From a bacterium (lineage in GTDB: Bacteria; Hinthialibacterota; Hinthialibacteria; Hinthialibacterales; Hinthialibacteraceae), in NCBI GenBank assembly GCA_963662285.2, contig CAXXMV010000001.1:1024001-1088000 (forward strand): a stretch of DNA of 64,000 nt, given 5' to 3'. The notes under the pieces were generated by a model. That model worked only from the letters and a program-made list of their open reading frames with translations, had not been told where the DNA came from and made no database searches. This document shows, piece after piece, positions 18,620 through 51,190 of the stretch (position 1 is its first letter; each line of letters opens with the position of its first letter). The translations under genes were made by a program, and so were the position numbers.

Positions 18620-18635
18620 AGTGTTTTACGAAAGT

Positions 18636-18665
18636 AAAAAAGGCGCGATTTCTCGCGCCTTTTTT
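18636..18665. terminator. Bidirectional intrinsic terminator
   Basis: aaaaaaggcgcga-tttc-tcgcgcctttttt between convergent genes. Confidence 0.9.
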
Positions 18666-18691
18666 ATTTGTTTAAATTGATAATAGATTGG

Positions 18692-20005
18692 TTATTGCAT
18701 CAACTCACGATAATAGAGGTTTGTTCGGCTATCTGGTCTAAATCCACGGTCGCCCGGTTTACGTCCCAGGTTGGCGTTCTGAACAGCGTTGAGAGAGCCG
18801 GTGGCATTGGTCAAAGAGGCCTGACGATCCACCCGTAAATATATAGGGACGACGCCGCGGATTTTCCTACTCTCTTCTCTTTGGTTTGCCCATCCTTTAT
18901 ATTCGATCTCAACAATTATCTTGACTGTACCTTCAAATGGCTTGGCCGGGAAGAAATAAACCCGTCCGCCCGCATCATCATAAAAATCATCCAAATCAAT
19001 ACGGCGGTTCATCATGTTTTTCCAGTTCCGGCTGGCCGGCTGGAATCCCTGAATGTAGCCAACGCCCTCAGCTTCACCGCGAGAATCGAGTGTAAACTGT
19101 ATAGTTGCATCTTTATCTATATCAACAATATTGATTTTTTCTCCATTTGATCCGATAACCTGCATATCAAGCGCAATCTGTTTACTACCGCCAGTTGTGT
19201 TTCGAACAGAAAAATCATCCGGTTTTACAATCAGCATCGGAGGATTAGCCACTATCTGAATCGAATCCGCTGTAACGCCTGGAGTCGGAGTCGGGGTGAC
19301 TATTCCAGGAGCAAAAGTAGGCGTCGGAGTTGGATCTTCACCTTTCTCTGTTGGCGTAGGGGTTGGTTCTGCAATCGTCGGGGTCGGCGTGGGATTATTA
19401 TCATTGCCGCCAATATGAGGAACCAATTGCACATTATCAATATAAGCCGGAGCAGCGCCATCATAAACAAATTCTATTTTTTTCTCGCTGTCTGTGGCGC
19501 CAGCGCCCAGATTCATATTCAATGTCAGAGTAGTTTCATTAAATAATCCCTGGCCAGTTTCAACAGGTATACCGGCAATCAGCATCCCACCAACAAAAAC
19601 ACGAATCTGTCCGCCCGGTGGAACTGCCGTACAGAATGTCAAATCAAACCGCACATAATTACCTTCTGTTTTGGGAACCGCAGCAATAGACGTCCCTGGT
19701 TCTAACGACAGGAAATAATTCTCGGCGCCTGAGGGGAGAACCTCTTTACGCAGCACAGGAGAAATTTCGCCCGGCAGCCAGCCAATCATTGGAGGAGCGC
19801 CGACAATGAGCGATCCCTGCTGAAAATCTCCATTGGTTATCAGGTTTTTTTCCGCATCAATCACCTTTTCGGTACAGCCTGTTTGAAAAGGCACAGCTGT
19901 AGGAGCTGGCGTAGGCGTTTGAGTTTGCGTATAACCTGGAGGCGCTGTATAAAACACTATACCAGCCGCTATCAAACTATAAATCAACCATCTTGTGGAT
20001 TTCAT
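18692..20005 (-). CDS. Secreted two-domain protein with Pro/Thr linkers; N-terminal CBM-like jelly-roll; last gene of the pseudopilin operon
   Basis: Signal peptide; NLITNGDF...YIDNVQL bounded domain; PTPTPT linkers; co-oriented downstream of the 2129-aa gene. Confidence 0.7.
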   Translation of the reverse strand: MKSTRWLIYSLIAAGIVFYTAPPGYTQTQTPTPAPTAVPFQTGCTEKVIDAEKNLITNGDFQQGSLIVGAPPMIGWLPGEISPVLRKEVLPSGAENYFLSLEPGTSIAAVPKTEGNYVRFDLTFCTAVPPGGQIRVFVGGMLIAGIPVETGQGLFNETTLTLNMNLGAGATDSEKKIEFVYDGAAPAYIDNVQLVPHIGGNDNNPTPTPTIAEPTPTPTEKGEDPTPTPTFAPGIVTPTPTPGVTADSIQIVANPPMLIVKPDDFSVRNTTGGSKQIALDMQVIGSNGEKINIVDIDKDATIQFTLDSRGEAEGVGYIQGFQPASRNWKNMMNRRIDLDDFYDDAGGRVYFFPAKPFEGTVKIIVEIEYKGWANQREESRKIRGVVPIYLRVDRQASLTNATGSLNAVQNANLGRKPGDRGFRPDSRTNLYYRELMQ

Positions 20006-20117
20006 GATTTTGATCCTTCCAAGCGATTCATCAAATTTATTTCCTCAAAATCAGCCGCTATAACCAAGAGTATCAAAAAAATCAGCGGACATCATATAAT
20101 TTATTAAAAAAAACAAA

Positions 20118-23100
20118 TTATCGTTGATAAATCGCCTCCAGCTTACGCTGGGCGGTAATATTTCCTTCGCTATCGAATATGCGTCCACGCGTAAGAATAG
20201 AAAACGCGCGCGAACGAACTGTAATCAGGCTTGAGATGCGGTTCATGACGGCTTCCATTTCCTCAGTTGTGAGAGGATCGTTGGTTCCAATATTTATCCT
20301 TTCGCGCAAGTCGCCCGGATAATCCTTCAGCAGATCTAACGTACGGTCATAGCGCACCCTCACCAAGTCAGCGAATCTATCTCGGCGCTTGAGGTGCATA
20401 ATCTGCGATAACAGAGTACCGGTATCCGAAAAAGGACCATCATCCGGATCGCTGACCTCAGTGGATAGATGAACATTGTTTCTGAGGTTACTAGCTTTGT
20501 CGCCTTTAACATTCTCAATATTCAGGCCCATACGATCAAAGCGTTGACTCTCGATATCTTTTAAATCTTTAAATGCGCGATAATCTCGTCCCACAGTCCT
20601 TAATTTATAATCAGTCATGGTATCGACTAATGTACGCGCATAACCAATCCGACTAAGGAAATCATCATCATCCAGGTTGTGAATTCCAAAATGCATATCA
20701 TGACCACCCGGTTGGCGTCCTTCAATAATATAATCGGCGCACAATGTGTTGAATTTATGGCGCGAGGGAATATCCTTCAAGCGACCGACGCTTTCCAATG
20801 GACAAAACGGAAGCGCGACCAGAACTTCACGCGGCGCAGTATTTATATTGATTGCTCCTGGAACAATGCCCTGAACAGCCGTGGTAATCATATTATAAAT
20901 CTGGGTATATTGGTTCTCCCATTGATCCAACCGTTCACGTTGCACCAGCATTTTGCGGAACTCCGGAGCGGCGCCAGCAATGCGTTGAACGATATCCGGC
21001 GTTGATAGTATTCTATTCCGAATCGCAGTAGCAATATCTTCGACTCGTTGAGGGATAATCGGCGTATTAATCGTCTCAAAACGATTGCCTGTAAACAGAC
21101 GGGATATCTCGCCCACTGTCGCCAACGGGCCATTCTTGACGTAAGCAGTATTATCGATAATATCCAGTTCATCACGCTGTTGGCCGGTCATATCCAAACG
21201 TCTTCTTGGATATGCTGGAACGTAGCCCGTGTTATCCCGGCCAGGCGTTCCTGCGAGAAGTACGCGACGCGCGATAGTATCGACGCTGTCTGTATCGCCT
21301 ACGCGTCCACGGCCAAATAACTCGATTCCCTTAAAGAAATAATTATCATCACCCATATTACCAACGTAAACGCCAGCGCCAGTTACATAATCTCCATTAG
21401 CTTGTGGATCCAAAGGCAATGGCAGTAGAAGTAAATCAGGACGGGTTTGTGCGGTAATAGTAGAATTATTGTTTAGCAAGCCCTGATCGCGGGTGCTCTT
21501 GCGCATAATGATCGTAATATCGATCTTGGCTTCTTCAAGCGATGATCCTATCAAATCCTGGCTCAGGTCTCTGAACCTCTCACGAAGATCAATGCTGAAT
21601 GCGGTGTCACCATTGCGCAGTTTAGAAAATACCGGTCGATGGACTCCATACAGAAAATTCTTATTGGCAGTATTGAGAACTTCACGTTTGGCTTTATCGT
21701 CGATATTGTTCAATCCTGGGTCCAAGGTAACAACAGCTGGATTAACCAGAACTTCACCAACCGGCAAATCGATTTCATAATTATCATCGTTCGGGCTAAT
21801 CGCCTTACGGCCAATCATCCTGATTGTCAGTTGATCATCAACATCGGGGTCATAACCGGCGCGAATCAGTTCGCGAACGCCCATACGCCATGTAAAGGCT
21901 GTATAACGGATCTGATTAGGCGAGATAACATCAGTCATGTTCTCAAACCCGCCGATCATGGAATAAAATTTGTTCTTTCCTATAACCGGAGACACGGCTT
22001 CTCTGGCGAAGGTATTGCTATCTTCAAATCGCTTGAATTGATTAGCGCCAGACATTTCATGAGGATACTGATAGAAATCGCCAATAAAATCCCACCCATT
22101 CCAGTGGGCGTCGTTTTCGGGGAAAGTATTACGATCCACGAATCTTGGTAAACGCAGACTGGGATTTTCGCTGTCGGTATCGCTTCCTTTGGAGGAAAGG
22201 ATATAACCACCAATTTGAGTTCGCTGAAAATCAGCGGTTGGATCAAGATCGAACACAATGGCATTATCAACATCTAACTTAATAGATGATGGAACCGTAC
22301 GTTCGCCTTCAACCGTTCCACTAACAACTTTCATCTGTGTATCAAAATGAGTCGGATCAGCGCGTTCAAAACTCTCCATGCCGCGATAACCGGGTAAAGC
22401 AATCAGATCAAAGTCCGTATCATTTCCAGGAATATCCACGATCACGTTATTAAAAGTAGTACGGTATTTAAAGGAATCTATGTAACCACCCGCCGGATCA
22501 TACAAAGTTACATATTTATCTTCGGGATTGTTGGTCAGAATATCTTCCTGAATATCCACTAATCTAAATCGAAGGTCGCTTAGTTGGGCTTTATTCAAAG
22601 GACCCACGCCATTTACGCTACTACGTATCAAAGCCTCTTCATTTTGCGCAATTACCGGCATCACAACGCGATTGGCGATGTCGGGAACATCAGGATAATT
22701 ATCCTTGATAAACGAAATCAAAGCATCTTTATCGTTGGCCAATAACAACTTGTTATCTTCCAATAACAGATCGGTCGTCGCGATCGTTCCGCCCGGATTT
22801 TTCAGATTATCCTTAGTAAGCAGAGGTTCAAAGGGAACGCCATTTCCCGGCAACCCGATGTTTGGCGTGATATCCCGACCGTCGTCATCTTCATAAGATG
22901 GTTTCATGCGACCGATGACAGTATCCTTTGGAAGAATGTAATGTCCATAAGGCGTATTGACCTGCCATCCGGAAAGGTCTATATCTTCAGTTGTCAGATT
23001 TACCAATTCGGTATACTGCACTGATGTGTTGATTAATTCGATGCGGTCAAAGGAAGTTTCATAAAAATCGCCTGATCCCTGTCCGCCAATAGGTGCGCCA

Positions 23101-26100
23101 GCGGTGATAGTAATCTTTAATTCACCATCGTTACGAACTTCAACGCGTTGATCAGTGTTAAAAGAATAAGGAGTTAAACGGTAATCCAAAGCCAATAACT
23201 GGTCATTGTAGATGGGCAGTACAGCTGTATCGCGTTTTATAAATTCTCTCTGAACTGGATCGAGAAACGGTCCGGTATTCGGCAGGACATCGCCATAAGT
23301 CGTATCGGATTTGAAAGTTATTTCTTCATCATTAAATTCATATCGCACTTCCGGTCGATATTTGTGATTGGGATGCAAATACAATACAACATAATAGAAG
23401 CCGGAAGGAATATTTTCGAAAGTCCAACTGGCTTTTTCAACCGGCTGCGTCCCGACCATCGTGGTCTGAGCTTGTGCAGGCGTCGCGACATTAGTTACGC
23501 CAAAGATAAATGCTGGCGCCATACTATCCATATTCACGACAGGCAATATTGGATTAAAAGTATTCTGGAAGCCCTCAGGCAAATAGGAATATCCCGGTAA
23601 AGATATACCACTGCCATCAGCATGAGGCGAAACAGCGCCCCAATTGGAATCGATCACGTTAGTAGTCAAGAATTTACCATCATCTCCAGCGCCGCCTTCT
23701 ACCTTAAATGATGCAGGAGAATAAGTAATTATAGTAGGATAAGGATTGGTCGGATCAGTATCGTTGAATTGGATGCTATCCAGCACTTCTTCCGCTTCCA
23801 AACGGATAACCGGCTTGGCCATAACTTCATTTATGCGAATCGCCTCAACCCCCTCAAACTTAACTGCCATTCCAATCTGAGCGGGATTGGGAAGAAGAAA
23901 GCGCATCTGCTCGGCGAACTCCTGCCGATCCTGCGCACTTCGGTTAGGCCCGGAAAATAAGCGGGGATGCATACGAAAAGCACGCTGACGGGTAGTATAA
24001 AGCGTAAACTCACGCATAGTGACCGGATCAGATAATACTGGATCATCTTTGGACCTACCCAATATCCTTCTTACATCAGAGTCTTCGCTAACCGGATATG
24101 GCGCCCATGCGTCAATATAATCAATCAGGTTCAGGGCTATCTGGAATTCAGGCGGATCTTCATCATAACGTCCGTCTTCATCATCATCATAAATTGCTAT
24201 ATAGCGCTCGCCAATTTCATCAACTTCGCCGTCGCTGTCGTTATCAACCCCGTCCCATTCCGGCGCGAACATCGCCGCTAGAACCTGGGGATCATAAAAA
24301 TCGGCGTATCCGTCAAAATCATCATCCGCCAAGCTGGAAAGCAACAAAGGATCAGTAATATCCGGTTTTTGAACTATGCGGCCTTCTTTTGTATCTTTAT
24401 CCGCTTCAGGATTACCGCCAAGACCGGGATAACCGTCTCCGCTCAGGTCGCCCCAGGCATCTTCACTGACATGCCATTCAGGATCATAAGCCAAAGATGC
24501 GTCACCATTGAAATCGCCGGTATCGTCGACCAATAGGTCTCCATCATCATCCTGTCCATTACCTTCGATCACCATGCCATAAATAATATCGGTATAGTTT
24601 TCATCCAGCGTTACAGCATCCCAACGCCGGGGAGAGAAATCTGCACCCTTTATATCCTTATCCCAACCGAGAATCCTCTGATTTTGATAAACCCGGTCGC
24701 CACTGGGGCTTAGTTTATCTTGCGGACCGAAGTCCCGGTCATAATCGCTGCCAGAGTCAAATGCCGGGGCGCCAACATCAGGTTCCCCGAATCCATCGAA
24801 ATCTCCACTAGCGTAATTGTTGCCATCCCAGTCATCGGAAGGTTCGTCAACCAGTCCATCGCCATCATCATCTATTCCATTGATAGTATTAGCTTCGGCT
24901 TCAGACTGCCAGTCGCCGTCATTATCAACCTGAAGCGCCAAGAGGTCTTCTATGTGAACTTTAGGGCCGTATTGAAAATCAGCCCGGTTCGCTGTTGGTT
25001 TGCTCAACGTCCAAACATCGGCGGCAAGCCAATTGCTGCTTAGATTAGGATTAATTTTGGCTACTTCGCTGCCTTTTGCGGAGAGCGGTCCTGATATCTC
25101 ATCGGATTGACTATAGATAGTGATCTCATCGCTCAGCATATCAAAGAAAGTCGGCTTTAACGCTGTATTGAGGTTCAATACGCCAACCATGCGTAAATCT
25201 TCTATAGTAGAAAACGGACGATCATCACCTTTAGGCTGAAAAACATCGAATTCGCTGGGATCGTCTGTACCTTCATCTTTTTCATCAATAAAACCGTCGC
25301 CATCATTATCGATTTTGTCGCCGGGTCGGTAATTGTCAGCATTATCGTGATCGAACGCTTTGGTAAGCGGTGAACCACTGGAGTTTTCCGTACTCGGTCC
25401 GATGTAGCGCTCGTCTTCTTCATTCATCAGGCTGTCGCCATCATCATCATAGCTGTTGCCTACAATTACATAAGGTTGACCGTCAAATTGAGTTAAATCG
25501 TTGAAAGCGTTGCTATATTTCTGAATTTTGACAATCTGTGGATTACCGTTATTGTTATCGTCTTGGTTATCTATTCCAGGTTGTTTAGTGGTTCCGCCGC
25601 CATTGGCGACATCACCATATCTATAGTTAACAATGGCTTTGGCCAAAGATTCGGCTGCAGTGGAGCTAAAATCACCCCGCACGATGCGGTTGAATAAAAA
25701 CAGAGGCAAATCCAGTTCTGAAGAGGACACGCCCAGATTATAAACCTGGCCATTCCCAACACCGATGTTATTTCCGGCGAAGTTGACATTGATCTTGGCG
25801 CTTTCATCGAATACGCCTAAACGGTCTCCATCAAGATCATAACCGGAACCAGCAGGGAAAAAGCCGTTGTCCCGCCGTTGGTCAAGTCCATCTTCATCAA
25901 TGCGGTAATCTTCATCATCATCGTTAGCATATTGATTACTATTGGCGCCGGCATCCACCTCGCCATCAAGGTCATCATCCACACCCATTAGCCCTGGCGC
26001 TTTATCACCTTGGCCTTGGCGCATAACACCGCGCATGCCGGTTACATCACCCGGAGGATCCTCGTCAACGCCTAATGGAATCGGCGTGGGGATAAAGCGC

Positions 26101-26507
26101 ATGCCTTTTCTTTCAAGCACTGAAGAAGGCCGCACATCCAACATATGACTGCGGGCGTCATAGGTTACATTATTGCCAACCCGGCCAGCGTATCCCACCG
26201 CCCATGGATCAAGCAGCGAAGTATATTTCGGCTGCGAACGCCCAAGCACGTAATGGGCTTTATCAGGATCCAAATCACGCGCCAATTGCGCCAATGCACC
26301 CTGAATGGCAGCTTCGGTAGACTCCTGGACGTTCGCGCTGGCTACATATTGCTGGAGGGTATTTTCTTCCATACGTATGGTATAGGTAAAACCAGCCAGC
26401 ACTACGGCGAAGATTGACAGTAAAGCCAGTACGGTCAGAAGCGCCACGCCGGACTCTTTAGCCCGTGCGGTACATGTGATTCGATGAGTATCCAGTTTAT
26501 TATTCAT
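20118..26507 (-). CDS. Giant GspK/PilX-like minor pseudopilin (2129 aa) with Asp-rich repeats and a lamin-tail-like domain
   Basis: ESG|VALLTVL prepilin site lacking Glu5; GspK-type motifs DESAKINVN, RPFSTIEDL, IALNLIDYID, ININTAPREVLVALP, ITVRSRAFSI..GR..RKLEAIYQR; LTD-like IRINEVM...ELVNL..IDLSGW. Confidence 0.8.
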   Translation of the reverse strand: MNNKLDTHRITCTARAKESGVALLTVLALLSIFAVVLAGFTYTIRMEENTLQQYVASANVQESTEAAIQGALAQLARDLDPDKAHYVLGRSQPKYTSLLDPWAVGYAGRVGNNVTYDARSHMLDVRPSSVLERKGMRFIPTPIPLGVDEDPPGDVTGMRGVMRQGQGDKAPGLMGVDDDLDGEVDAGANSNQYANDDDEDYRIDEDGLDQRRDNGFFPAGSGYDLDGDRLGVFDESAKINVNFAGNNIGVGNGQVYNLGVSSSELDLPLFLFNRIVRGDFSSTAAESLAKAIVNYRYGDVANGGGTTKQPGIDNQDDNNNGNPQIVKIQKYSNAFNDLTQFDGQPYVIVGNSYDDDGDSLMNEEDERYIGPSTENSSGSPLTKAFDHDNADNYRPGDKIDNDGDGFIDEKDEGTDDPSEFDVFQPKGDDRPFSTIEDLRMVGVLNLNTALKPTFFDMLSDEITIYSQSDEISGPLSAKGSEVAKINPNLSSNWLAADVWTLSKPTANRADFQYGPKVHIEDLLALQVDNDGDWQSEAEANTINGIDDDGDGLVDEPSDDWDGNNYASGDFDGFGEPDVGAPAFDSGSDYDRDFGPQDKLSPSGDRVYQNQRILGWDKDIKGADFSPRRWDAVTLDENYTDIIYGMVIEGNGQDDDGDLLVDDTGDFNGDASLAYDPEWHVSEDAWGDLSGDGYPGLGGNPEADKDTKEGRIVQKPDITDPLLLSSLADDDFDGYADFYDPQVLAAMFAPEWDGVDNDSDGEVDEIGERYIAIYDDDEDGRYDEDPPEFQIALNLIDYIDAWAPYPVSEDSDVRRILGRSKDDPVLSDPVTMREFTLYTTRQRAFRMHPRLFSGPNRSAQDRQEFAEQMRFLLPNPAQIGMAVKFEGVEAIRINEVMAKPVIRLEAEEVLDSIQFNDTDPTNPYPTIITYSPASFKVEGGAGDDGKFLTTNVIDSNWGAVSPHADGSGISLPGYSYLPEGFQNTFNPILPVVNMDSMAPAFIFGVTNVATPAQAQTTMVGTQPVEKASWTFENIPSGFYYVVLYLHPNHKYRPEVRYEFNDEEITFKSDTTYGDVLPNTGPFLDPVQREFIKRDTAVLPIYNDQLLALDYRLTPYSFNTDQRVEVRNDGELKITITAGAPIGGQGSGDFYETSFDRIELINTSVQYTELVNLTTEDIDLSGWQVNTPYGHYILPKDTVIGRMKPSYEDDDGRDITPNIGLPGNGVPFEPLLTKDNLKNPGGTIATTDLLLEDNKLLLANDKDALISFIKDNYPDVPDIANRVVMPVIAQNEEALIRSSVNGVGPLNKAQLSDLRFRLVDIQEDILTNNPEDKYVTLYDPAGGYIDSFKYRTTFNNVIVDIPGNDTDFDLIALPGYRGMESFERADPTHFDTQMKVVSGTVEGERTVPSSIKLDVDNAIVFDLDPTADFQRTQIGGYILSSKGSDTDSENPSLRLPRFVDRNTFPENDAHWNGWDFIGDFYQYPHEMSGANQFKRFEDSNTFAREAVSPVIGKNKFYSMIGGFENMTDVISPNQIRYTAFTWRMGVRELIRAGYDPDVDDQLTIRMIGRKAISPNDDNYEIDLPVGEVLVNPAVVTLDPGLNNIDDKAKREVLNTANKNFLYGVHRPVFSKLRNGDTAFSIDLRERFRDLSQDLIGSSLEEAKIDITIIMRKSTRDQGLLNNNSTITAQTRPDLLLLPLPLDPQANGDYVTGAGVYVGNMGDDNYFFKGIELFGRGRVGDTDSVDTIARRVLLAGTPGRDNTGYVPAYPRRRLDMTGQQRDELDIIDNTAYVKNGPLATVGEISRLFTGNRFETINTPIIPQRVEDIATAIRNRILSTPDIVQRIAGAAPEFRKMLVQRERLDQWENQYTQIYNMITTAVQGIVPGAININTAPREVLVALPFCPLESVGRLKDIPSRHKFNTLCADYIIEGRQPGGHDMHFGIHNLDDDDFLSRIGYARTLVDTMTDYKLRTVGRDYRAFKDLKDIESQRFDRMGLNIENVKGDKASNLRNNVHLSTEVSDPDDGPFSDTGTLLSQIMHLKRRDRFADLVRVRYDRTLDLLKDYPGDLRERINIGTNDPLTTEEMEAVMNRISSLITVRSRAFSILTRGRIFDSEGNITAQRKLEAIYQR

Positions 26508-26543
26508 AATTCCACTCTATTTATGCGTCGTTATATGCTTGCG

Positions 26544-27920
26544 CTACAGATTACCTATGCTCCGATAGTTATTCGGCAAAAATACTCTTGTTGAATATTG
26601 CTTAGGACTGTTTTCACGATCTTTATCTTGCACATAAATGGTGATTTCCACCATGTTGGGCAATCCATCTGTTTTTTGAGCTATGCGCTGATATACATCT
26701 ATAAACTGACTGTTCTGTGCATTCCTGACGCTGTTTCTCAGTTGACGGGGATCTTTAATCAGGAAATCCATCAGAACCCCCTGTCCACCGCCAGGTATCC
26801 GGGGATACATATCTTCTGGTTCATTTACAATCAATTTAGTAAAAAGGTCTTCTCGTACGTTATTTGAGGTTGGATCATATTCGCTGTTGCTGCTGCGAGC
26901 TAATTTGTTAAACAGCAACTCATCAGGACTGACCAGCGCTGTTTCGCGGGACGAATCCCACTCTTGAACCATGCGCCAGCCTCCCCGGTTGTAATCATAA
27001 TACCAATACCGGAAGCGCAATCCGCGAATATCATAAGACAACACCTGGAATATATGGCCGGGATTCTGATTAGTCGAATTTATTTCGCCAATGGCGCCGT
27101 CTTCCGCTCCATCATCCCAATAAAGTTCGGCTTGTTGAACAAAACTTTTTCTCATTATCTGCCCAATTGGAACAGGTTGAGCAACAAGAGGTTTGAGGGA
27201 AGCATCGTCAATGAACTGTCCAAAATCCAGCAGTTGGGTTTTCGTACTCGCTTGATTATTTAGGTTTAATACTTGACCGCGTCGAACCAGGCGTGTTCCA
27301 GATGGATCCAATCCATAAGAAATCTCTTGCAGAATAATATCGCCCGAACTCTCCACAGCACTGACAAAATGCAAAATATCGCTGGGAAAAAGACCAATGT
27401 CTTCATCTATGCAAGCCGAATCACCCGGATCACAGCCCAGCGGATCAGCGCCAGGGCTTTCTCCGCGCAATGCTTGTTGAGCACCGCCAGCATAATCCCC
27501 GTCAAATCCATCAAGCACCTCTTCATCGATCAAGCCATCGCCATCATCGTCTTTCCCTGCGCCAGGGACGCTGGAATCCGGCTCGACGACAATATCGCGT
27601 GAAATGCCTGCGAATCGTAACCGCGGACCTGTATTTTGCGATCCAAAACCACCAACGACAACAGGTTTTACCGAATCGGGCGTCAAATAAGCCGCCCGTA
27701 GTTCAGACGACATAAAATCTAACGCCGCACGCGCGGTCTCGTTAACTTCTAACCGGCGAACGGCTATATCCCGTGCAGTCATTACCGCGCGAAATGTTTG
27801 AGCCGCCATGCCCGCCAACATAGTAATCACGGCGACCGAGATCATTAATTCCACTAAGGTAAAACCGCTCTCTTGTCTTACCGGTTGCAATCGCGAAGCG
27901 GTCTGATCTTGAGCAACCAT
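26544..27920 (-). CDS. GspJ/PilW-like minor pseudopilin with an Asp-rich insert
   Basis: ESG|FTLVELM, ARAALDFMSSELRAA, LRFRYW...WDS, LPNMVEITI; GKDDDGDGLIDEE insert. Confidence 0.82.
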   Translation of the reverse strand: MVAQDQTASRLQPVRQESGFTLVELMISVAVITMLAGMAAQTFRAVMTARDIAVRRLEVNETARAALDFMSSELRAAYLTPDSVKPVVVGGFGSQNTGPRLRFAGISRDIVVEPDSSVPGAGKDDDGDGLIDEEVLDGFDGDYAGGAQQALRGESPGADPLGCDPGDSACIDEDIGLFPSDILHFVSAVESSGDIILQEISYGLDPSGTRLVRRGQVLNLNNQASTKTQLLDFGQFIDDASLKPLVAQPVPIGQIMRKSFVQQAELYWDDGAEDGAIGEINSTNQNPGHIFQVLSYDIRGLRFRYWYYDYNRGGWRMVQEWDSSRETALVSPDELLFNKLARSSNSEYDPTSNNVREDLFTKLIVNEPEDMYPRIPGGGQGVLMDFLIKDPRQLRNSVRNAQNSQFIDVYQRIAQKTDGLPNMVEITIYVQDKDRENSPKQYSTRVFLPNNYRSIGNL

Positions 27921-27982
27921 TGTTTTCGCCTTTCTTTCAAACCATCCTTATTTCAGAAGGTTCGATCTGCTTCAATTGCCAA

Positions 27983-29509
27983 CTACATACTCGACACAGG
28001 CCGTGACTGAAGCCCGCGCGGCTGTCCGCCGCTTAATATAAAGCCCTGGCTTGGATCTTTAAGATTAATAAATCCAACCAGTGTATATTCAAATTTATAA
28101 CAGTCCTCATCAATCTCGCCATCAAAATCGTTATCCAGGCCGTCTAATTTCTCTTCATCCACGCCCCAACTTATAGAACCATAGGATAAACGTTGACGAC
28201 GTATCACTCTTGGGTCATTTGGCACCAGATCATCACTGGCTTGTTTATCAATTTTTTTACTATCCCCATCGGTATCTTCACCATCACCGCCCCAGACAAT
28301 CAAAATCTCTATCCGACGCCAATTAGGCAATGGCGCAGCCACGCAATCTTCGTCTACCAAGCCATCCCGTCTTTTGGGAACTTGCGAGTATCCCCGCAAA
28401 AACGCCAAGCCGCGTCTTGTGCCTGAAGGAACAGGAAAATCGTAATCCAGGCCGTCAGGAATCTCTTCATCGATGAATCCATCTCCATCATCATCAATTC
28501 CATTGCCCAGGTCAGGCGAACCATCGCCATTTATATCGGTTATACCGAAACGGCCATCATTAGGTATGCGTCCAACTCGTATTTGCCAGGAATACTTTTC
28601 GAATGGCGCAGGAAAAGGGCAAGGGGCGAATGGAAAACAGGAAAGATCACAATCTTCATCAATAAGGCCATCGTGGTCATTATCAATGCCATCCCATATT
28701 TCCTCATCAATGCCCTCGTCGATTCGGCCATCGCCATTATTGTCTATACCATCTTTAACGGCAGGCAATCCCTGACGATCCGGCTCAAATTCTCCATCTC
28801 CGTCATTATCATATTTATCTCCCGCTAAAAGAGGCAACATGAAAAACTGCGATCCCATTACGCGCACTGAAGGCAAACGGCAATCCTCATCAATGAAACC
28901 ATCTTTGTCATCATCAATTCCGTTGGCAAACTCTTCATCCGTATTAGGTTCAGGATCATAATTATAATCGCCATCTGGAGCATCAGTAGCGAATCTGCGT
29001 GGGATATCCGTTAAACGCCTACTTGAACTATCGCCATCATCATCGACGACGCCATCGCCATCATCATCCAGACCATTAGGTTGAATACCAGAGAACCTTA
29101 AACCATCCGCTTCCGGCAGCCCATCATAATCATCATCGCTGGCGCGGTTATAATTCAAGTCATATTGAGGATTTGCACGAGAAAAGATACGATCCTGATT
29201 GAACATGATATCGTCGGTGTCATCATCATAACAATTGCCGGGAATAGGAATAATTATATTTGGACCCCCGGGAAGGATCGGGAAGTTTATCGGGTCCATC
29301 TTTAAACCCTCAAACATACTTTGCGCCAAAAGCGACGCCTTCGTCATATGCTCAGCTCTATAGCTAACTTCGATGCCATAGGGAAACACCTTCACTATAG
29401 ACAATAGCCCAATCCCCAGGATTGCAGCGGCGATAATTACCTCAAGCAGCGAAAAACCTGCTTGGCGGTAGTTTCTTTTATGTTTCTCTTGGCGGTTCGT
29501 GCCAGTCAT
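27983..29509 (-). CDS. GspI/PilV-like minor pseudopilin (508 aa) made mostly of Asp-rich repeats
   Basis: QAG|FSLLEVIIA, ASLLAQSMFE, KYSWQIRV, RRIEILIVW; many DG.D.D.DG..DE(DC) repeats. Confidence 0.82.
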   Translation of the reverse strand: MTGTNRQEKHKRNYRQAGFSLLEVIIAAAILGIGLLSIVKVFPYGIEVSYRAEHMTKASLLAQSMFEGLKMDPINFPILPGGPNIIIPIPGNCYDDDTDDIMFNQDRIFSRANPQYDLNYNRASDDDYDGLPEADGLRFSGIQPNGLDDDGDGVVDDDGDSSSRRLTDIPRRFATDAPDGDYNYDPEPNTDEEFANGIDDDKDGFIDEDCRLPSVRVMGSQFFMLPLLAGDKYDNDGDGEFEPDRQGLPAVKDGIDNNGDGRIDEGIDEEIWDGIDNDHDGLIDEDCDLSCFPFAPCPFPAPFEKYSWQIRVGRIPNDGRFGITDINGDGSPDLGNGIDDDGDGFIDEEIPDGLDYDFPVPSGTRRGLAFLRGYSQVPKRRDGLVDEDCVAAPLPNWRRIEILIVWGGDGEDTDGDSKKIDKQASDDLVPNDPRVIRRQRLSYGSISWGVDEEKLDGLDNDFDGEIDEDCYKFEYTLVGFINLKDPSQGFILSGGQPRGLQSRPVSSM

Positions 29510-29527
29510 TTTTCTCTCCCAGGCGCT

Positions 29528-30334
29528 TTACTTAAACAACTCATCCATGGGCCATGGATTCATAATAGCGTAATCATAGATGCGAGTTTTACCTGTAAGT
29601 CTAACAGCTTCAATTGTTTGCACTTTATAACGTTCTTGGTTAAGTTCGGATGGCGGATCAACCCATTTCATTTTGCTGGTACTGAAAGCGCCGATATTTT
29701 TAATATAATCGCCATTTTCGCCATTTATCATGAATATCTCGCTATCACGAGCCAAATGAATCACTGGAGCAATTTGGTTCGATAGCGTTTGCTGCTCTTT
29801 TCCATCAAAATAAACTTTGGCGATTGCTCCACGGGCATTAAACTCGACATAAAAAATTTGCGCGTGATCATCTAATCCCGGGATAAAGCCATCCACATCC
29901 GCAACCATGACTCCATCAGGTAAAGTCTGTGGATCGTTTAATGGATTCGCATTGAAAATATCCGTACTATTACCCTTACATAAGGCCTTAACTTCATAAG
30001 GATACTCCTCGCAAACTTTACCTTCGATCCAGATTTGAGCTGGCTCGGTGCGTGATCCGGATAAAGTATTTGGAAGACCATCCAGATGCCCCGAATCGAT
30101 TACCACCCGGCGATTTTTCCGCATTGCAATCGCGCTTTGCCGGGCTTGTTTGAAACTTGAATTCAACATTTGAATCCCGGCATCCACCCGGCTGCTAGCC
30201 ACCTGCGTCATGTAACTCATCGTCCCAAAGCCAGCCAGAATGCCGATAATCCCGATAACCATCAGCATCTCAAGCATAGAAAAACCGGCCTGTCTTGAAC
30301 GACGATCATTAACGTTAATTTTATTAACTTTCAT
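29528..30334 (-). CDS. GspH/FimT-like minor pseudopilin
   Basis: QAG|FSMLEMLMV, FKQARQSAI..RRVVID, VEFNARG, IEAVRLTGKTRI. Confidence 0.82.
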   Translation of the reverse strand: MKVNKINVNDRRSRQAGFSMLEMLMVIGIIGILAGFGTMSYMTQVASSRVDAGIQMLNSSFKQARQSAIAMRKNRRVVIDSGHLDGLPNTLSGSRTEPAQIWIEGKVCEEYPYEVKALCKGNSTDIFNANPLNDPQTLPDGVMVADVDGFIPGLDDHAQIFYVEFNARGAIAKVYFDGKEQQTLSNQIAPVIHLARDSEIFMINGENGDYIKNIGAFSTSKMKWVDPPSELNQERYKVQTIEAVRLTGKTRIYDYAIMNPWPMDELFK

Positions 30335-30885
30335 GGTATCAGACCCTTATATATATCTTCAAGATAAAACTCCAGCCAGATCACAGCCTGAATCTTATCT
30401 CATCAAACTTAACAATATCACGCATCTGAACTTTGGGTCAGATAAATCTTTTGGCTTCCCTAAGCCATCCCTGCGTCAATTCCGTCCCTCGTGACCCATC
30501 ACACTAACAAATCAACTTAAAAATTGGAAATATATGGAATGCACATTATATCTATTGAATGGAAGCCCCATAGGGTTGAACCGCATCATCGGTTTATTCC
30601 ATTCAAAATTCAAATTGACTGGGGAAATGAGCGTCCCCTTTATTCAGCCCCAAAAACAAAAATAAATCATTGCATATCAGATATTTACTAAGCTTCGGTT
30701 GTTCCACCACTCTAAACTATATCATGCACCTTCAAAACCATCAAATTAAATGTAACGTTTTTTGTAATTTAAATTGTGGGTCATGCGTTACACCTATATT
30801 TCTTATTGAACATTATTTCAATAAGAAATATTCAAATTTACATTTGATAGGTTACATAATATTCTTCATTCATGCAGAAAATACT

Positions 30886-32020
30886 CTAAATATCTATTTT
30901 CACATCAGCAGCAGGTTCGCCGCCTCGTAAATCAAAACGTAGAAATGCGCTTATAAAATCATCTAATTCGCCATCCATCACCGGCTGAACATCGCCGCGC
31001 TCAAAGCCGGTGCGATGATCTTTAATCATGTTATAGGGGTGAAATACATAAGAGCGGATCTGGTTGCCCCAGGCAATATCACGTTTTTCTCCGGACAGTT
31101 CTTCAACTCTTTCGGCATGTTCGGTCTGCATCATTTGAAACAACCGGGAAGTTAGTATCTTCATAGCAGTCATACGGTTTTGTCGTTGAGACCGTTCATT
31201 TTGACATGAAACCACTATCCTGGTTGGCAGGTGAGTTATACGGATAGCAGAATCGGTAGTGTTGACATGCTGACCGCCTTTACCTGAAGCACGAAAGGTA
31301 TCGATGCGAAGGTCTTTTTCATCAATGTCCACATCTATGCTGTCATCAATCACAGGCATTACATGAACCGCAGCGAACGAGGTATGACGCCGGGAATTCG
31401 AGTCGAATGGAGAAATTCTCACCAAGCGGTGGATGCCATTCTCTGCATGAATATACCCATAAGCGTAACTGCCTTTAACCATAATAGTTACGTTTTTTAA
31501 GCCCGCTTCATCGCCTTCCTGATAATCCACAACATCCGCTTCCCAACCCTGGCGTTCGATATACCTCATGTACATGCGAAACAGCATGGCGGCCCAATCA
31601 CATGATTCGGTTCCACCAGCGCCGGGATGAATATTTAGAAAACAGTCGCCAGAATCAAAATCACCACTGAGAGTACAATGGATTTCAAATTTATCAAATT
31701 CTGTCTTGATATCGGAAAGTTCTTCGGAGAATTCTTCTTCATGAGAAGAGTCATTTTCTTCCTGGACCATCTCAAGCATAATTTCCAGATCAGATATGCG
31801 AGATTCAAGAGAACCATAATTATCGACAATATCTTTAAGTATCTTGATCTGTTTGCCATGTTCCTGTGCAACTTTGGGATTATCCCAAAAGCCGGAAGCG
31901 TTCATCTCTTCTTCAAGTCGGGAAATAACGGCTTGTTTGGCGCCTACGTCAAAGATGGCCTCCCAACTCTTCGAGACGTTCATGCATGGAGCTCAACTCC
32001 ACTTGTATTTCATCGTACAT
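30886..32020 (-). CDS. prfB: Peptide chain release factor 2 with programmed +1 frameshift
   Basis: GAGGTES, RISPF (SPF), GGQ motifs; real start ATG at 32020 (MYDEIQVE...), 23 codons to CTT-TGA-C, then +1 shift into the 30886-31983 frame. Confidence 0.96.
31948..31964 (-). promoter_or_regulatory. prfB +1 frameshift site with internal Shine-Dalgarno
   Basis: Minus strand reads GGGAGG-CCAT-CTT-TGA-C, matching the canonical RF2 autoregulatory signal. Confidence 0.95.
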
Positions 32021-50542: not shown

Positions 50543-51190
50543 ATGAAGCGCCGAAACGGATTTACGCTGATAGAATTGCTGATCGTTGTTGCCATCATTG
50601 GGATTCTGGCCGCTATTGCAGTTCCAAACTTTCTCAATGCCCGCACCCGCGCCATTATTTCCCGTGGAATGGCGGATATGAAGAATCTAGGAACTGCTAT
50701 CGAACAGTTTCGTTTGGATCATAATTATTTGCTGATAGACTTTTGGGATGATGACACCCCTCAAGGCATCGAACGAATAGAAATACTTGGGATTCTACCA
50801 TACAACAACGGCCCGGATCGAACCATGATTCAGATTCTCGGTCCACTAACCACACCAGTATCATATATGTCAACCATACCGAAGGATCCATTTAATGTTC
50901 CCACCTCAGCCAAAGATACTGAGGCTTATGTCAAATACGCCAATGGGACTTATATTTACGGCGATAATGAACCTTATTATCCCGGAGAGAATCACGGCAT
51001 CAGCGCCCTACAGACTGCCAACGCCCAAGAGTCAAAACAACGCCCTCTCGCCAAAAACGAATGGGCGCTAATGGGCGTAGGTCCCGATGGCCTATGGCAA
51101 AACACCATGCGGGGTCTTCCCTACAATTCGTCTAACGGATTAGTTAGTTTAGGAGATATTGTCATTAGACAAGGCGGCGGGGGACAATAA
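50543..51190 (+). CDS. Stand-alone GspG-like prepilin (type IV pilin N-methylation domain)
   Basis: RNG|FTLIELLIVVAIIGILAAIAVPNF; TTPVSY..IPKDPF; GVGPDG; YNSSNGLVSLGDI. Confidence 0.88.
   Translation: MKRRNGFTLIELLIVVAIIGILAAIAVPNFLNARTRAIISRGMADMKNLGTAIEQFRLDHNYLLIDFWDDDTPQGIERIEILGILPYNNGPDRTMIQILGPLTTPVSYMSTIPKDPFNVPTSAKDTEAYVKYANGTYIYGDNEPYYPGENHGISALQTANAQESKQRPLAKNEWALMGVGPDGLWQNTMRGLPYNSSNGLVSLGDIVIRQGGGGQ

What the first reader, a model, noticed from the sequence alone, without database searches (positions are those of the whole stretch)
18692..30334. Minor pseudopilin operon (H-I-J-K) inflated with shared Asp-rich metal-binding-like repeats: candidate novel T2SS/T4P tip complex
Seen: four consecutive prepilin-site genes in GspH/FimT, GspI/PilV, GspJ/PilW, GspK/PilX order, of 268, 508, 458 and 2129 aa; the K subunit lacks Glu5 as expected. 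Established: canonical GspI, J and K are roughly 120, 200 and 320 aa and form the pilus tip trimer; DxDxDG loops typically bind Ca2+. Here exactly the three tip subunits, and not H, carry inserts of one motif, [ND]G-x-D-[DN]-D-x-D-G-x-[IV]-D-E (e.g. NGIDDDGDGLVDE, DGIDNDHDGLIDEDC, GKDDDGDGLIDEE). It resembles the MopE-related putative metal-binding repeat without its internal Cys. No ATPase, platform, secretin or major pilin gene is in the operon. Inference: a very large, strongly anionic, metal-loaded pilus tip for substrate recognition, mineral or polysaccharide adhesion, or cation capture.
Basis: partly seen in the sequence, partly recalled or inferred. Interest (0 to 1): 0.88.

Follow-up and report, generated by a model that had tools for sequence, protein, structure and literature searches.

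The report
Giant calcium-loop pilus tip operon
An uncultured polysaccharide-degrading bacterial lineage carries a conserved five-gene operon for the tip of a pilus-like filament whose subunits are several times normal size and packed with calcium-loop-like acidic repeats, an undescribed variant of a well-known machine part.

Summary
Four consecutive minus-strand genes encode prepilin-type proteins in GspH/I/J/K order, of 268, 508, 458 and 2129 aa. K has Thr, not Glu, at +5.

One acidic motif, consensus xGxDDDGDGxxDE, occurs about 10 times in I, 6-12 times in K, 1-2 times in J and never in H. Genome-wide (7.3 Mb) the strict motif hits only 6 ORFs, three of them I, J and K.

It encodes a secreted protein with a nearly invariant C-terminal tail.

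The cassette is single-copy and syntenic in 24 loci. It is present in every genome of one order of the candidate phylum Hinthialibacterota/OLB16 (26 of 35 phylum genomes). A diverged version with a 1756-aa K exists in the rest of the class.

- I has a GspI-like core.
- An I-J complex gets weak support.
- K aligns to bona fide GspK at its N-terminal helix and last helix-hairpin-helix motif.
- The repeat profile hits almost only EF-hand loops in the PDB, but weakly.

Best reading: this is the initiation/tip complex of a type IV filament, with the adhesin fused into K. It is a new variant of a known kind. The partner machine and the ligand are not determined.

The parts
29528..30334 (-). Gene H: GspH/FimU-like minor pseudopilin, 268 aa, with no acidic repeats
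   Evidence: One search gives the translation. PF07963 scores 26.8 bits against a 21.2 cut-off. TIGR01708 gspH gives E 1.9e-8 but only 34.5 bits, below the 80-bit cut-off, and matches the N-terminal part only. It has 0 motif hits. Homologues of 214-288 aa occur in 16 loci.
27983..29509 (-). Gene I: GspI/PilV-like minor pseudopilin, 508 aa, pI 4.1, net charge -60. A pilin core (helix 21-71 and four strands at 290-298, 307-316, 393-406, 473-482) is interrupted by three acidic repeat inserts (about 83-288, 317-392, 407-472).
   Evidence: TIGR02523 PilV gives E 2.9e-10, 40.8 bits against a 52.2 cut-off. The model has core pLDDT of 62-78 and inserts below 50. In one search the top hits among 48,161 chains are XcpV 5bw0_B (Z 7.1, rmsd 2.4, 87 of 89 residues) and EpsI 2ret_A (Z 6.8, 84 of 84). 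The acidic positions are invariant in 15 sequences.
26544..27920 (-). Gene J: GspJ/PilW-like minor pseudopilin, 458 aa, with one full acidic repeat (residue 124) plus partial copies within residues 119-182
   Evidence: only N-terminal matches, to gspJ (E 0.001) and Verru_Chthon C (E 2.5e-6), both far below their cut-offs. Alignment A5 of 17 sequences is. The chain reached pLDDT of about 73 in the I-J complex runs.
26178..26507 (-). K residues 1-110: prepilin-like leader, hydrophobic helix without Glu5, GspK-like N-terminus
   Evidence: NF037980 T2SS_GspK gives E 1.4e-5 for residues 19-104, 24.8 bits against a 130 cut-off. hhalign against this genome's own three GspK paralogues gives probability 85.6%, E 5.6e-6, for residues 10-78.
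24108..26117 (-). K residues 131-800: Asp-rich region (17.3% D, net charge -107) with 6-12 copies of the shared repeat
   Evidence: Many invariant D and G columns appear in 15 sequences. There is no Pfam match at E<=10.
21288..24107 (-). K residues 801-1740: beta-rich central region with an LTD-like segment (1164-1198) and two beta-sandwich-like parts (about 930-1165 and 1406-1736)
   Evidence: PF00932 LTD gives E 7.2e-4, 20.3 bits against a 34.3 cut-off. PF00932 is precomputed on 9 of 34 homologues. The model is poor, mean pLDDT 43.3. Weak CBM/jelly-roll matches reach Z 5-6.6. Atlas leads are LTD clusters at 0.81 and 0.78.
20121..21287 (-). K residues 1741-2129: helical region with the 'ININTAPREVL' helix-hairpin-helix motif (1884-1900) and a terminal beta-hairpin. 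This is the GspK-like C-terminal module.
   Evidence: hhalign against own GspK gives probability 71%, E 3.7e-5, for residues 1866-1902. Profile A7 retrieves GspK-family proteins P0067 and P0073 at E of about 1e-6 to 1e-5. Those two match NF037980 at E 1.3e-19 and 1.2e-29. Secondary structure is, at low confidence.
18692..20005 (-). Gene 5: secreted 437-aa protein. It has a signal peptide, an 'NGDFE...W...IDNVQL' N-terminal domain, a Pro/Thr linker, a second domain, and a nearly invariant C-terminal tail GDRGFRPDxRTNLYFRER.
   Evidence: alignment A4 of 17 sequences has its invariant columns concentrated in the last 18 residues. There is no Pfam or NCBIfam hit. Atlas leads to CBM-cenC, CBM_4_9 and DUF642 clusters score 0.76-0.80, which is weak. 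It was detected downstream of K in 17 of 19 loci with enough sequence.
18632..18669 (.). 17-bp-stem hairpin flanked by an A-run and a T-run, between gene 5 and the convergent gene: a likely bidirectional terminator closing the operon
30335..30885 (-). 551-bp intergenic region upstream of H, the presumed promoter region. It holds one sigma-70-like site at 30744-30716.
   Evidence: Promoter-like sites are not enriched over shuffles (32 against 27.2 +/- 5.1), so this is only a candidate.

Best explanation
The operon encodes the initiation/tip complex of a type IV filament, most likely a surface pilus rather than a periplasmic T2SS pseudopilus.

Proposed sequence of events:
1. H, I, J and K are inserted in the inner membrane by their class-III signal and processed by a prepilin peptidase.
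2. I and J pair.
3. K, a GspK homologue, caps them. About 1,800 residues have been inserted between its N-terminal helix and its C-terminal helix-hairpin-helix/beta-hairpin module.
4. H links the cap to the major pilin.
5. Polymerisation of major pilin underneath then carries the cap outward.

The cap is a strongly anionic assembly (net charge about -240 for I+J+K). It carries about 20 EF-hand-like Dx[DN]xDG loops that probably bind Ca2+ and rigidify otherwise disordered inserts.

K's beta-sandwich/LTD-like central domains serve as the adhesin, so the PilY1/MshQ-type function is fused into K in cis. The secreted gene-5 protein probably contributes too, and may dock through its conserved C-terminal tail.

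The likely ligand is polysaccharide or particulate organic matter.

Shown:
- gene order
- prepilin signals
- missing Glu5 in K
- shared repeat
- conservation and synteny
- GspI-like core of I
- collinear GspK anchors in K
- machinery present in the genome

Inferred:
- assembly into a filament
- Ca2+ binding
- the partner machine
- the ligand
- the role of gene 5
For: Signals and order:
- N_methyl is above its cut-off in H, I and J. Weak best matches run gspH, PilV, gspJ, GspK, in that order.
- K lacks Glu5 in 15 of 15 sequences.

Fold of I:
- Despite a poor overall model (mean pLDDT 44.7), the core has pLDDT 62-78.
- The 8 best of 48,161 PDB chains are all pilins or pseudopilins. They are led by XcpV (Z 7.1, 87 of 89 residues aligned) and EpsI (Z 6.8, 84 of 84).

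I-J complex:
- Verdict: weak support.
- ipSAE 0.59 against a best control of 0.01.
- Runs agree in at least 62% of contacts. Partner pLDDT is at least 72.
- That mark was reached by 58 of 80 solved complexes and 2 of 110 mismatched pairs. Scores of 0.60 or below were reached by only 7 of those 80 and by both passing mismatches.
- GspI-GspJ complexes are already solved, so this shows likeness, not binding.

K compared with GspK:
- hhalign gives 85.6% for the N-terminal helix and 71% for the last HhH motif, in collinear order.
- The K C-terminal profile finds GspK-family proteins among 1.84 billion representatives.

Repeat:
- It is nearly confined to I, J and K in the genome.
- Its profile matches 29 PDB sequences at E<=10, of which 26 are EF-hand proteins. 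The best E is only 0.023.
- Dx[DN]xDG loops bind Ca2+ in at least twelve families (PMC3123361, abstract seen in a search listing).

Conservation:
- 24 loci were found, always in H-I-J-K order, with gene 5 following K wherever it was detected.
- Subunit sizes are conserved.
- The cassette is in 26 of 35 phylum genomes, which is every genome of one order, at one copy each.
- A diverged H-I(540 aa, 8 repeats)-J-K(1756 aa, 9 repeats) cassette occurs in another family.

Machinery in the genome:
- The three T2SS loci each have their own GspK.
- The MSHA-like locus has its own minor pilins plus a DUF6701 protein.
- A dispersed T4aP-like set has no adjacent minor pilins. It consists of a PilM-PilN fusion plus a TPR-secretin, PilB/PilT/MshE-type ATPases, and an orphan platform gene.

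Precedent: large tip proteins attach through, or complete, the K-subunit beta-sheet. PilC/PilY1 and MshQ do so in trans; GspK and CpaL do so in cis (PMC13533445, abstract and section 10 read).
Against: - No family-specific HMM reaches its curated cut-off: gspH 34.5 of 80 bits, PilV 40.8 of 52.2, gspJ 18.9 of 64.85, GspK 24.8 of 130. All matches cover mainly the N-terminal helix.
- The K C-terminal profile has no significant PDB sequence match.
- Both AlphaFold models are poor (mean pLDDT 43.3 and 44.7, from 15-row alignments). Fold matches have Z below 8, a range the tool says can be a common arrangement.
- The I-J result is only 'weak support'.
- No assembly gene is linked to the cassette in any of 24 loci.
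- The candidate T4aP partner does not discriminate. Its PilMN gene is in 35 of 35 phylum genomes, including the 9 where the order-type K was not found at E<=1e-20.
- Ca2+ binding, surface exposure and ligand are untested.
- A cap of about 3,000 residues would have to pass a secretin.
- Gene 5 was not detected downstream of K in 2 of 19 loci (L037, L039). The 649-aa gene that follows K in the diverged cassette has a different C-terminal sequence.
Confidence: 0.65

Rival explanations
1. The cassette is the pseudopilus tip of a type II secretion system. It stays periplasmic and recognises or gates particular exoproteins, such as glycoside hydrolases, rather than forming a surface adhesin.
For: - K's N-terminus matches T2SS GspK best.
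- K appears to supply its own C-terminal hairpin in cis, as T2SS GspK does (PMC13533445 abstract).
- The genome holds several T2SS-type loci and many secreted CAZyme-like genes.
Against: - All three recognisable T2SS loci already encode their own GspK of 428-463 aa next to their pseudopilins.
- I matches PilV better than XpsI (E 2.9e-10 against 7.7e-5).
- A 2129-aa cap with adhesin-like beta-sandwich domains plus a secreted partner fits an exposed tip better.
- Cis-type K subunits also occur in some T4P (PMC13533445, section 10).
Confidence: 0.15
2. The proteins do not prime a filament. The prepilin-like N-termini serve only as membrane anchors or export signals for a large anionic envelope complex, in line with the roughly 129 prepilin-like genes in this genome.
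For: - The genome has a huge expansion of solitary prepilin-like ORFs of about 200 aa. About 129 were found by a regex heuristic.
- The cassette is never linked to machinery.
- Family HMMs match only the N-terminal helices.
Against: - The strict H-I-J-K order is conserved across the class.
- K specifically lacks Glu5.
- I has a GspI-like core.
- The I-J pairing signal is 0.59 against 0.01.
- K has GspK anchors at both ends.
- All of these are features of an initiation complex, not of generic anchors.
Confidence: 0.1
3. The primary function is cation handling: capture or buffering of Ca2+, lanthanides or other metals, or binding to mineral surfaces. The repeats would be the functional payload rather than structural stabilisers.
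For: - I, J and K carry extreme negative charge (net -60, -22 and -156).
- EF-hand-like loops are present, and lanmodulin is among the weak PDB matches at E 2.5.
- There is sub-threshold similarity to the PF11617 'Cu-binding_MopE' repeat. Three PF11617-bearing proteins appear among the hits found with I.
Against: - All these matches are weak.
- PF11617 is below its cut-off, and the Cys residues recalled as conserved in that motif are absent.
- No metal-uptake or redox genes are in the operon or conserved beside it.
- Two thirds of K is non-repeat domain conserved as strongly as the repeats.
- Ca2+ sites in pilus-tip proteins such as PilY1 are described as needed for pilus function (PMC8833165 and PMC3248442, abstracts in a search listing).
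Confidence: 0.07
4. It is a DNA-uptake (competence) pilus tip, comparable to the large ComZ minor pilin of Thermus.
For: - ComZ (6qvi_A) is among the fold matches of I at Z 5.3.
- K carries helix-hairpin-helix motifs.
Against: - The HhH motifs are those of ordinary GspK.
- A net charge of about -240 would repel DNA.
- No competence genes are linked.
- The ComZ match reflects only the shared pilin core.
Confidence: 0.03

Closest known systems
GspH-GspI-GspJ-GspK / FimU-PilV-PilW-PilX core minor (pseudo)pilin set of type II secretion systems and type IVa pili
   Same: - Four consecutive prepilin-type genes in the same order.
- Glu5 is present in H, I and J and absent in K.
- I has a GspI-like helix-plus-four-strand core.
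- An I-J pairing signal is seen.
- K shares the GspK N-terminal helix and the last HhH motif.
- The operon is free-standing, as fimU-pilVWXY1E is (recalled).
   Different: - The subunits are 508, 458 and 2129 aa.
- One EF-hand-like acidic repeat is shared by all three tip subunits.
- No family HMM reaches its cut-off.
- An extra secreted gene takes the position where PilY1 is encoded.
Large tip-associated proteins PilC/PilY1, MshQ (in trans) and CpaL/TadG, ComZ (in cis)
   Same: - A big adhesin-type mass is carried on the K position of the tip.
- CpaL has a pilin-like N-terminal domain, a dispensable middle of about 470 residues, and a C-terminal strand that completes the sheet (PMC13533445, section 10). 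K here has the same layout.
- PilY1 function depends on Ca2+ (PMC8833165, abstract).
   Different: - K's insert is about 1,800 residues, roughly four times that of CpaL.
- The Pfam-A scan of K and gene 5 listed no PilY1 family and no DUF6701 at E<=0.1.
- The Ca-type loops are spread over three subunits rather than one.
- Whether gene 5 docks by its tail, as PilY1 and MshQ do, is untested.
TIGRFAM 'Verru_Chthon cassette' proteins D, B, C, A (TIGR02596, TIGR02598, TIGR02599, TIGR02600). An uncharacterised four-gene cassette of Verrucomicrobia with a model of about 1300 positions for protein A. The description is recalled.
   Same: - It has prepilin-type small proteins plus a very large A protein.
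- H, I, J and K each give their D, B, C and A counterpart as a weak N-terminal match.
   Different: - Scores are far below the cut-offs: 26.7 of 70, 14.6 of 51.4, 27.0 of 256.5 and 11.1 of 332.3 bits.
- The phylum is different.
- No information was found on acidic repeats in that cassette.
- A full-text search for the name found 0 papers.
Dx[DN]xDG calcium-binding loops (EF-hand and related) and the PF11617 'Cu-binding_MopE' putative metal-binding repeat
   Same: - The consensus xGxDDDGDGxxDE fits the D1-x-D3-x-D5-G6-x-I8 loop pattern.
- 26 of 29 weak PDB matches are EF-hand proteins.
- The two best PF11617 matches in the genome lie in gene I.
   Different: - The loops are not flanked by EF-hand helices.
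- The Glu at loop position 12 is not conserved; Asp-Glu at positions 9-10 is conserved instead.
- The repeat lacks the Cys residues recalled for the PF11617 motif and scores 15.8 bits against 27.
- There is no Pfam match at all at E<=10 in a direct scan.

Membership tests
Core minor (pseudo)pilins GspH/I/J/K = FimU/PilV/W/X | Class-III signal (prepilin cleavage/methylation motif) followed by a hydrophobic helix | tested here: met
   PF07963 is above its cut-off in H, I and J (26.8, 29.5 and 28.9 bits against 21.2). K has G|VALLTVLALL and a GspK-like helix.
Core minor (pseudo)pilins GspH/I/J/K = FimU/PilV/W/X | Glu5 present in H, I and J and absent in the K subunit; gene order H-I-J-K | tested here: met
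   Thr at +5 is invariant in 15 of 15 K sequences. The same order is seen in all loci with flanks and in the diverged cassette.
Core minor (pseudo)pilins GspH/I/J/K = FimU/PilV/W/X | Score above the curated cut-off of the family models (TIGR01708, TIGR02523/NF047828, TIGR01711, NF037980) | tested here: not met
   Scores are 34.5 of 80, 40.8 of 52.2, 18.9 of 64.85 and 24.8 of 130 bits. Matches cover N-terminal parts only.
Core minor (pseudo)pilins GspH/I/J/K = FimU/PilV/W/X | Pilin fold of the globular part (helix packed on an antiparallel sheet) | tested here: inconclusive
   - I: top matches are XcpV at Z 7.1 and EpsI at Z 6.8 with full target coverage, but Z is below 8 and the overall model is poor.
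- J: not modelled alone. Only its pLDDT of about 73 in the complex runs is known.
- K: the model is too poor to judge.
Core minor (pseudo)pilins GspH/I/J/K = FimU/PilV/W/X | I-J heterodimer | tested here: inconclusive
   The verdict was weak support: ipSAE 0.59 against a best control of 0.01. The result may reflect memory of solved GspI-GspJ complexes.
GspK/PilX (K subunit) | Helical domain with helix-hairpin-helix motifs inserted in the pilin fold | tested here: inconclusive
   - PF03934 scores 13.5 bits against 24.2 at residues 1886-1899.
- hhalign against own GspK gives 71% for residues 1866-1902.
- The A7 profile retrieves GspK-family proteins.
- PF21687 does not match K in the genome scan.
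Type IV filament system (whole) | Prepilin peptidase, assembly ATPase, platform protein and secretin encoded in the genome | tested here: met
   The genome gives 2 Peptidase_A24, 11 T2SSE, 16 T2SSF-domain and 8 secretin matches. None is linked to the cassette.
Verru_Chthon cassette (TIGR02596/98/99/2600) | Scores above the subfamily cut-offs for proteins D, B, C and A | tested here: not met
   Scores are 26.7 of 70, 14.6 of 51.4, 27.0 of 256.5 and 11.1 of 332.3 bits.
PF11617 Cu-binding_MopE repeat | Match to the 30-position model above 27 bits, with its Cys residues | tested here: not met
   The best matches are 15.8 and 11.7 bits, both in gene I and covering model positions 15-30 only. A direct scan gave no hit. 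The residue between DND and DG is G, H, K, F or S, not Cys.
Dx[DN]xDG calcium-binding loop | Linear motif D-x-[DN]-x-D-G with a hydrophobic residue at position 8 and distal acidic ligands | tested here: met
   16 units are aligned in A6, with D6, D10 and G11 invariant. The profile matches EF-hand loops.
Dx[DN]xDG calcium-binding loop | Actual Ca2+ binding | not testable with these tools
   This needs ITC, 45Ca overlay or Tb3+ luminescence on repeat fragments.
PilC/PilY1 or MshQ tip adhesins (for K's insert or gene 5) | PilY1 beta-propeller or DUF6701 domain; C-terminal strand that adds to the K subunit's sheet | tested here: inconclusive
   The Pfam-A scan of K and gene 5 listed no PilY1 family and no DUF6701 at E<=0.1. 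Gene 5 does have a nearly invariant C-terminal tail. Docking was not modelled, because K's pilin core is split between its two ends and exceeds the size limit.
Lamin tail domain (PF00932) in K | Score above 34.3 bits | tested here: inconclusive
   The window's K scores 20.3 bits, E 7.2e-4. 9 of 34 homologues carry a precomputed PF00932 hit. Atlas leads point to LTD clusters at 0.81 and 0.78.

The most novel reading that the evidence does not exclude
This would be a new class of type IV filament tip, found throughout the sampled Hinthialibacterota.

- The adhesin is fused in cis into a giant GspK.
- All three cap subunits are threaded with about 20 EF-hand-like loops.
- The loops stay disordered at low Ca2+ and fold on export, so that a cap of about 3,000 residues can pass the secretin and then rigidify outside.
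- A secreted CBM-like protein (gene 5) clips on through its invariant C-terminal tail.
- The result is a calcium-switched grappling hook for polysaccharide particles.
Probability: 0.25. Interest if true: 0.8.

Novelty: new variant of a known kind. Interest (0 to 1): 0.6.

Why it matters
Minor-pilin caps decide whether a type IV filament is built and what it sticks to. Known caps are small, and any large adhesin is usually a separate protein.

Here an entire uncultured lineage keeps one single-copy cassette in which I, J and K are 2-7 times the normal size and share a calcium-loop repeat. The lineage has been inferred to degrade complex and sulfated polysaccharides (PMC9324843, passages read).

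If the reading holds, three things follow:
- It extends the recently proposed 'beta-strand addition' logic of tip complexes (PMC13533445) to an extreme cis-fused case.
- It gives a handle on how these bacteria attach to particles.
- It offers a natural test of how large a cargo a secretin-dependent filament can carry.

The repeat itself has no Pfam match and may deserve its own family model.

Tried and rejected
- AlphaFold2 of K residues 930-2129 gave mean pLDDT 43.3. AlphaFold2 of I gave 44.7. Both used alignments of only 15 rows. Only I's core and the secondary-structure pattern of K were used. The CBM-like matches of K (Z 5-6.6) are leads only.
- PDB sequence searches gave nothing at E<=1 for the full-length K profile and nothing at E<=10 for I. 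The K C-terminal profile gave one chance-level hit.
- The direct Pfam scan of the acidic regions gave nothing at E<=10.
- TSP_3 (PF02412) has no match in the cassette.
- Paralogues of the five proteins in the own genome: none at E<=1e-3, apart from short helix or Pro/Thr-linker matches.
- Phylogenetic profile of the PilM-PilN fusion: it is present in 35 of 35 phylum genomes, so it does not discriminate a partner machine.
- The greedy hhalign run aligns further GspK motifs to K's N-terminal 500 residues and C-terminal strands. The probabilities of the extra alignments are 0.1-33%, so it is not used as evidence.
- The promoter scan showed no enrichment over shuffles.
- Expression: no RNA holder was listed.
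- Taxon names of the second-tier giant K-like proteins could not be obtained. Whether such giants exist outside this phylum is therefore open.
- A K-gene-5 docking model was not attempted. K's pilin core lies at its two ends, sequences may not be joined, and the tool takes at most 1000 residues.
- Supplements are closed. The supplementary figures of PMC13533445 (tip-complex models) and the gene tables of PMC9324843 might mention related proteins, and I could not see them.
- In-print check: searches for 'Hinthialibacterota' (5 papers), 'Verru_Chthon cassette' (0), 'OLB16'+'pili' (3) and minor pilin/GspK/tip complex/large/insertion (59, of which 20 were listed) showed no description of this cassette in what I read: titles, abstract starts, and passages of PMC9324843.

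Full report
**What is there.** Five tightly spaced minus-strand genes lie between a release-factor gene (PCRF+RF-1 domains, 30886-31983) and a convergent gene:
- 29528-30334, 268 aa (H)
- 27983-29509, 508 aa (I)
- 26544-27920, 458 aa (J)
- 20118-26507, 2129 aa (K)
- 18692-20005, 437 aa (gene 5)

The gaps between them are 18, 62, 36 and 112 nt. A hairpin with a 17-bp stem, flanked by an A-run and a T-run (18632-18669), closes the unit.

**Prepilin character and order.** H, I and J carry Pfam N_methyl above its cut-off and read G|F..E. K reads G|VALLT, and Thr at +5 is invariant in 15 of 15 homologues. NCBIfam gives weak matches, mostly to the N-terminal helix, in the expected order:
- gspH for H (E 1.9e-8)
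- PilV for I (2.9e-10)
- gspJ for J (1e-3)
- GspK for K (1.4e-5)

All are below the curated cut-offs. The same four proteins also touch the 'Verru_Chthon cassette' models D, B, C and A, far below cut-off.

**The repeat.** The D.D.DG core occurs 7 times in I, 6 times in K and once in J. It is absent from H and gene 5.
- A tight pattern hits only 6 ORFs in the 7.29-Mb genome. Three of them are I, K and J.
- An HMM built from 16 units ranks I, K and J first genome-wide, with 11, 12 and 2 domains. This is circular for those three, but the next ORF has E 0.013.
- I, J and K have net charges of -60, -22 and -156. K residues 131-800 are 17.3% Asp.
- In alignments of 15-17 homologues the acidic positions are largely invariant. 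The Cys after 'DED' in I is variable.

**What the repeat resembles.**
- Pfam finds nothing at E<=10 in these regions.
- PF11617 (MopE) reaches only 15.8 bits against a 27-bit cut-off, although its best two genome matches lie in gene I. Three of 93 proteins found with I carry PF11617.
- TSP_3 does not match the cassette.
- Against the PDB the repeat profile matches 29 sequences at E<=10, with a best E of 0.023. Of these, 26 are EF-hand proteins, matched at their Ca2+ loops.
- The unit is therefore a Dx[DN]xDG-type loop. That motif binds Ca2+ in at least twelve structural families (PMC3123361, abstract seen in a listing).
- Binding here is inferred, not shown.

**Are they pseudopilins beyond the helix?**

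*I.* The AlphaFold2 model is poor overall (mean pLDDT 44.7). It nevertheless has a confident helix (21-71) and four strands with pLDDT 62-78. The acidic inserts score below 50. Against 48,161 PDB representatives the eight best matches are all pilins or pseudopilins:
- XcpV: Z 7.1, rmsd 2.4, 87 of 89 residues
- GspK: Z 6.9
- EpsI: Z 6.8, 84 of 84 residues

Z below 8 is a range the tool flags as possibly generic.

*I-J complex.* The prediction gave 'weak support'. ipSAE was 0.59 against a best control of 0.01. The runs agreed in at least 62% of contacts, and partner pLDDT was at least 72. Solved GspI-GspJ complexes exist, so this shows likeness rather than binding.

*K.*
- hhalign against this genome's own three GspK paralogues (453, 463 and 428 aa) aligns the N-terminal helix at probability 85.6%, E 5.6e-6.
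- It aligns the last helix-hairpin-helix motif, K 1866-1902, at 71%, E 3.7e-5. The two anchors are collinear.
- A profile of K 1700-2129 searched against 1.84 billion representatives found 82 proteins at E<=0.001.
- Among them are normal-sized GspK-family proteins. P0067 and P0073 match NF037980 at E 1.3e-19 and 1.2e-29.
- There is also a tier of other giants of 1144-1906 aa. Four of the five tested have GspK-like N-termini.
- K is thus best read as a GspK with about 1,800 residues inserted between its two ends.
- The model of K 930-2129 is poor (mean pLDDT 43.3). It suggests beta-rich domains, then a helical region, then a terminal hairpin.
- Matches to carbohydrate-binding jelly-rolls are weak (Z 5-6.6). 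An LTD-like segment is sub-threshold.

**Gene 5.** It has a signal peptide, an 'NGDFE..W..IDNVQL' domain, a Pro/Thr linker and a second domain. Its C-terminal tail, GDRGFRPDxRTNLYFRER, is the most conserved part of the protein. Atlas leads point weakly (0.76-0.80) to CBM-type clusters. Ellison et al. report that PilC/PilY1 and MshQ are predicted to give their last residues as a beta-strand to the K subunit. They report that GspK and CpaL do this in cis (PMC13533445, abstract and section 10). Gene 5's position and tail make it a candidate trans partner, but this is untested.

**Distribution.**
- K has 34 relatives in the 5.8-billion-protein set. All are unnamed or 'hypothetical'. Their records are labelled Ca. 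Hinthialibacter antarcticus, 'Ca. Omnitrophota' or 'bacterium'.
- 24 loci in species-representative genomes show the same gene order. H was detected in 16, I in 18 and J in 19. Gene 5 was detected in 17 of 19 loci with enough downstream sequence; L037 and L039 lack a detectable copy.
- Sizes are conserved: H 214-288, I 471-543, J 410-470, K 2140-2258 and gene 5 409-446 aa.
- In the phylum's 35 genomes the K module is found in 26, at one match per genome except G024, whose two partial matches lie on contig fragments. That is all of families f1-f3 and none of f4-f6 at E<=1e-20.
- All five f4-f6 genomes tested have a diverged match. Four of these lie in open frames of 1278-1777 aa.
- One such locus shows H, I (540 aa, 8 repeats), J, K (1756 aa, 9 repeats, no Glu5), followed by a 649-aa gene with a lipoprotein-like signal and a different C-terminus.
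- The only paper on this phylum that I read in part mentions flagella and Tad pili. No other pilus system or pseudopilin appeared in the passages shown, which were 12 of 25 places.

**Machinery.** The genome has 11 T2SSE, 16 T2SSF-domain, 8 secretin and 2 prepilin-peptidase matches.
- Three T2SS loci each have their own GspK.
- An MSHA-like locus (PilM/N, secretin, ATPase, platform) has its own small pilins and a DUF6701 protein.
- A Tad-like locus is also present, judged from gene sizes and adjacency.
- A dispersed T4aP-like set has no adjacent minor pilins. It comprises a PilM-PilN fusion with a TPR-secretin, PilB, PilT and MshE-type ATPases, two further PilT paralogues and an orphan platform gene. 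It is the most economical partner.
- Its PilMN gene is in 35 of 35 phylum genomes, so the profile does not discriminate.
- No machinery lies within up to 10 kb of any of the 24 loci.

It needs these corrections:
- J barely carries the repeat.
- Most of K is non-repeat domain.
- A fifth gene belongs to the unit.
- The repeat is EF-hand-like more than MopE-like.
- The system is a variant of the known 'large tip protein' theme (PilY1, MshQ, CpaL, ComZ) rather than a new category.

Still open:
- metal binding
- the ligand
- the partner machine
- how such a cap is exported

Noticed in passing
window 50543-51190 (+) and 62748-63371 (-); genome-wide: Two solitary prepilin-like genes of about 210 aa with the '[GA]FTLIELL' signature lie in the window. 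A regex heuristic finds about 129 prepilin-like ORFs in the genome, most of them this solitary type of about 200 aa. This resembles (from recall) the expansions seen in Planctomycetes and Verrucomicrobia.
   Followed up: partly
G000 C2:3068-9559 (L044:3068-9559, minus strand): A second giant ORF of 2163 aa has no Pfam match at E<=0.001 and carries two copies of the acidic motif. It is not similar to K by tblastn.
   Followed up: partly
G000 C8:420000-432000 (L048): A PilM-PilN fusion protein (693 aa) lies next to a 1057-aa secretin with N-terminal TPR repeats. Two cohesin-domain proteins (620 and 530 aa) lie directly upstream.
   Followed up: partly
G000 C1:1214000-1231000 (L041): An MSHA-like pilus locus holds PilM/N, a secretin, an ATPase and a platform gene. 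A divergent set of small pilins plus a 489-aa DUF6701 protein lies alongside, followed by a response-regulator/SpoIIE phosphatase/HATPase protein.
   Followed up: partly
L037:1246-2874 and L030:9980-16511: In two homologous loci a cassette gene is interrupted. The I gene of L037 has an internal stop. The K gene of L030 is split, with an ORF of 1114 aa and two tblastn pieces. Whether these are assembly errors or real breaks was not examined.
   Followed up: no
window 15872-18619 (+): A 915-aa protein made of CarboxypepD_reg/transthyretin-like repeats has a Por_Secre_tail match at residues 59-150, an unusual N-terminal position. It is convergent with the operon.
   Followed up: no
window 14414-15697 (+) and loci L018, L021, L022, L024, L030, L035: A ThuA plus 3-keto-disaccharide-hydrolase fusion gene lies downstream of the cassette, on the opposite strand, in the window and in 6 of the related loci. 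It is the only flanking gene found conserved.
   Followed up: partly
window 12001-14000: There is a very strong AT skew (0.387) over the SbcC/Rad50-like gene at 11320-14367.
   Followed up: no
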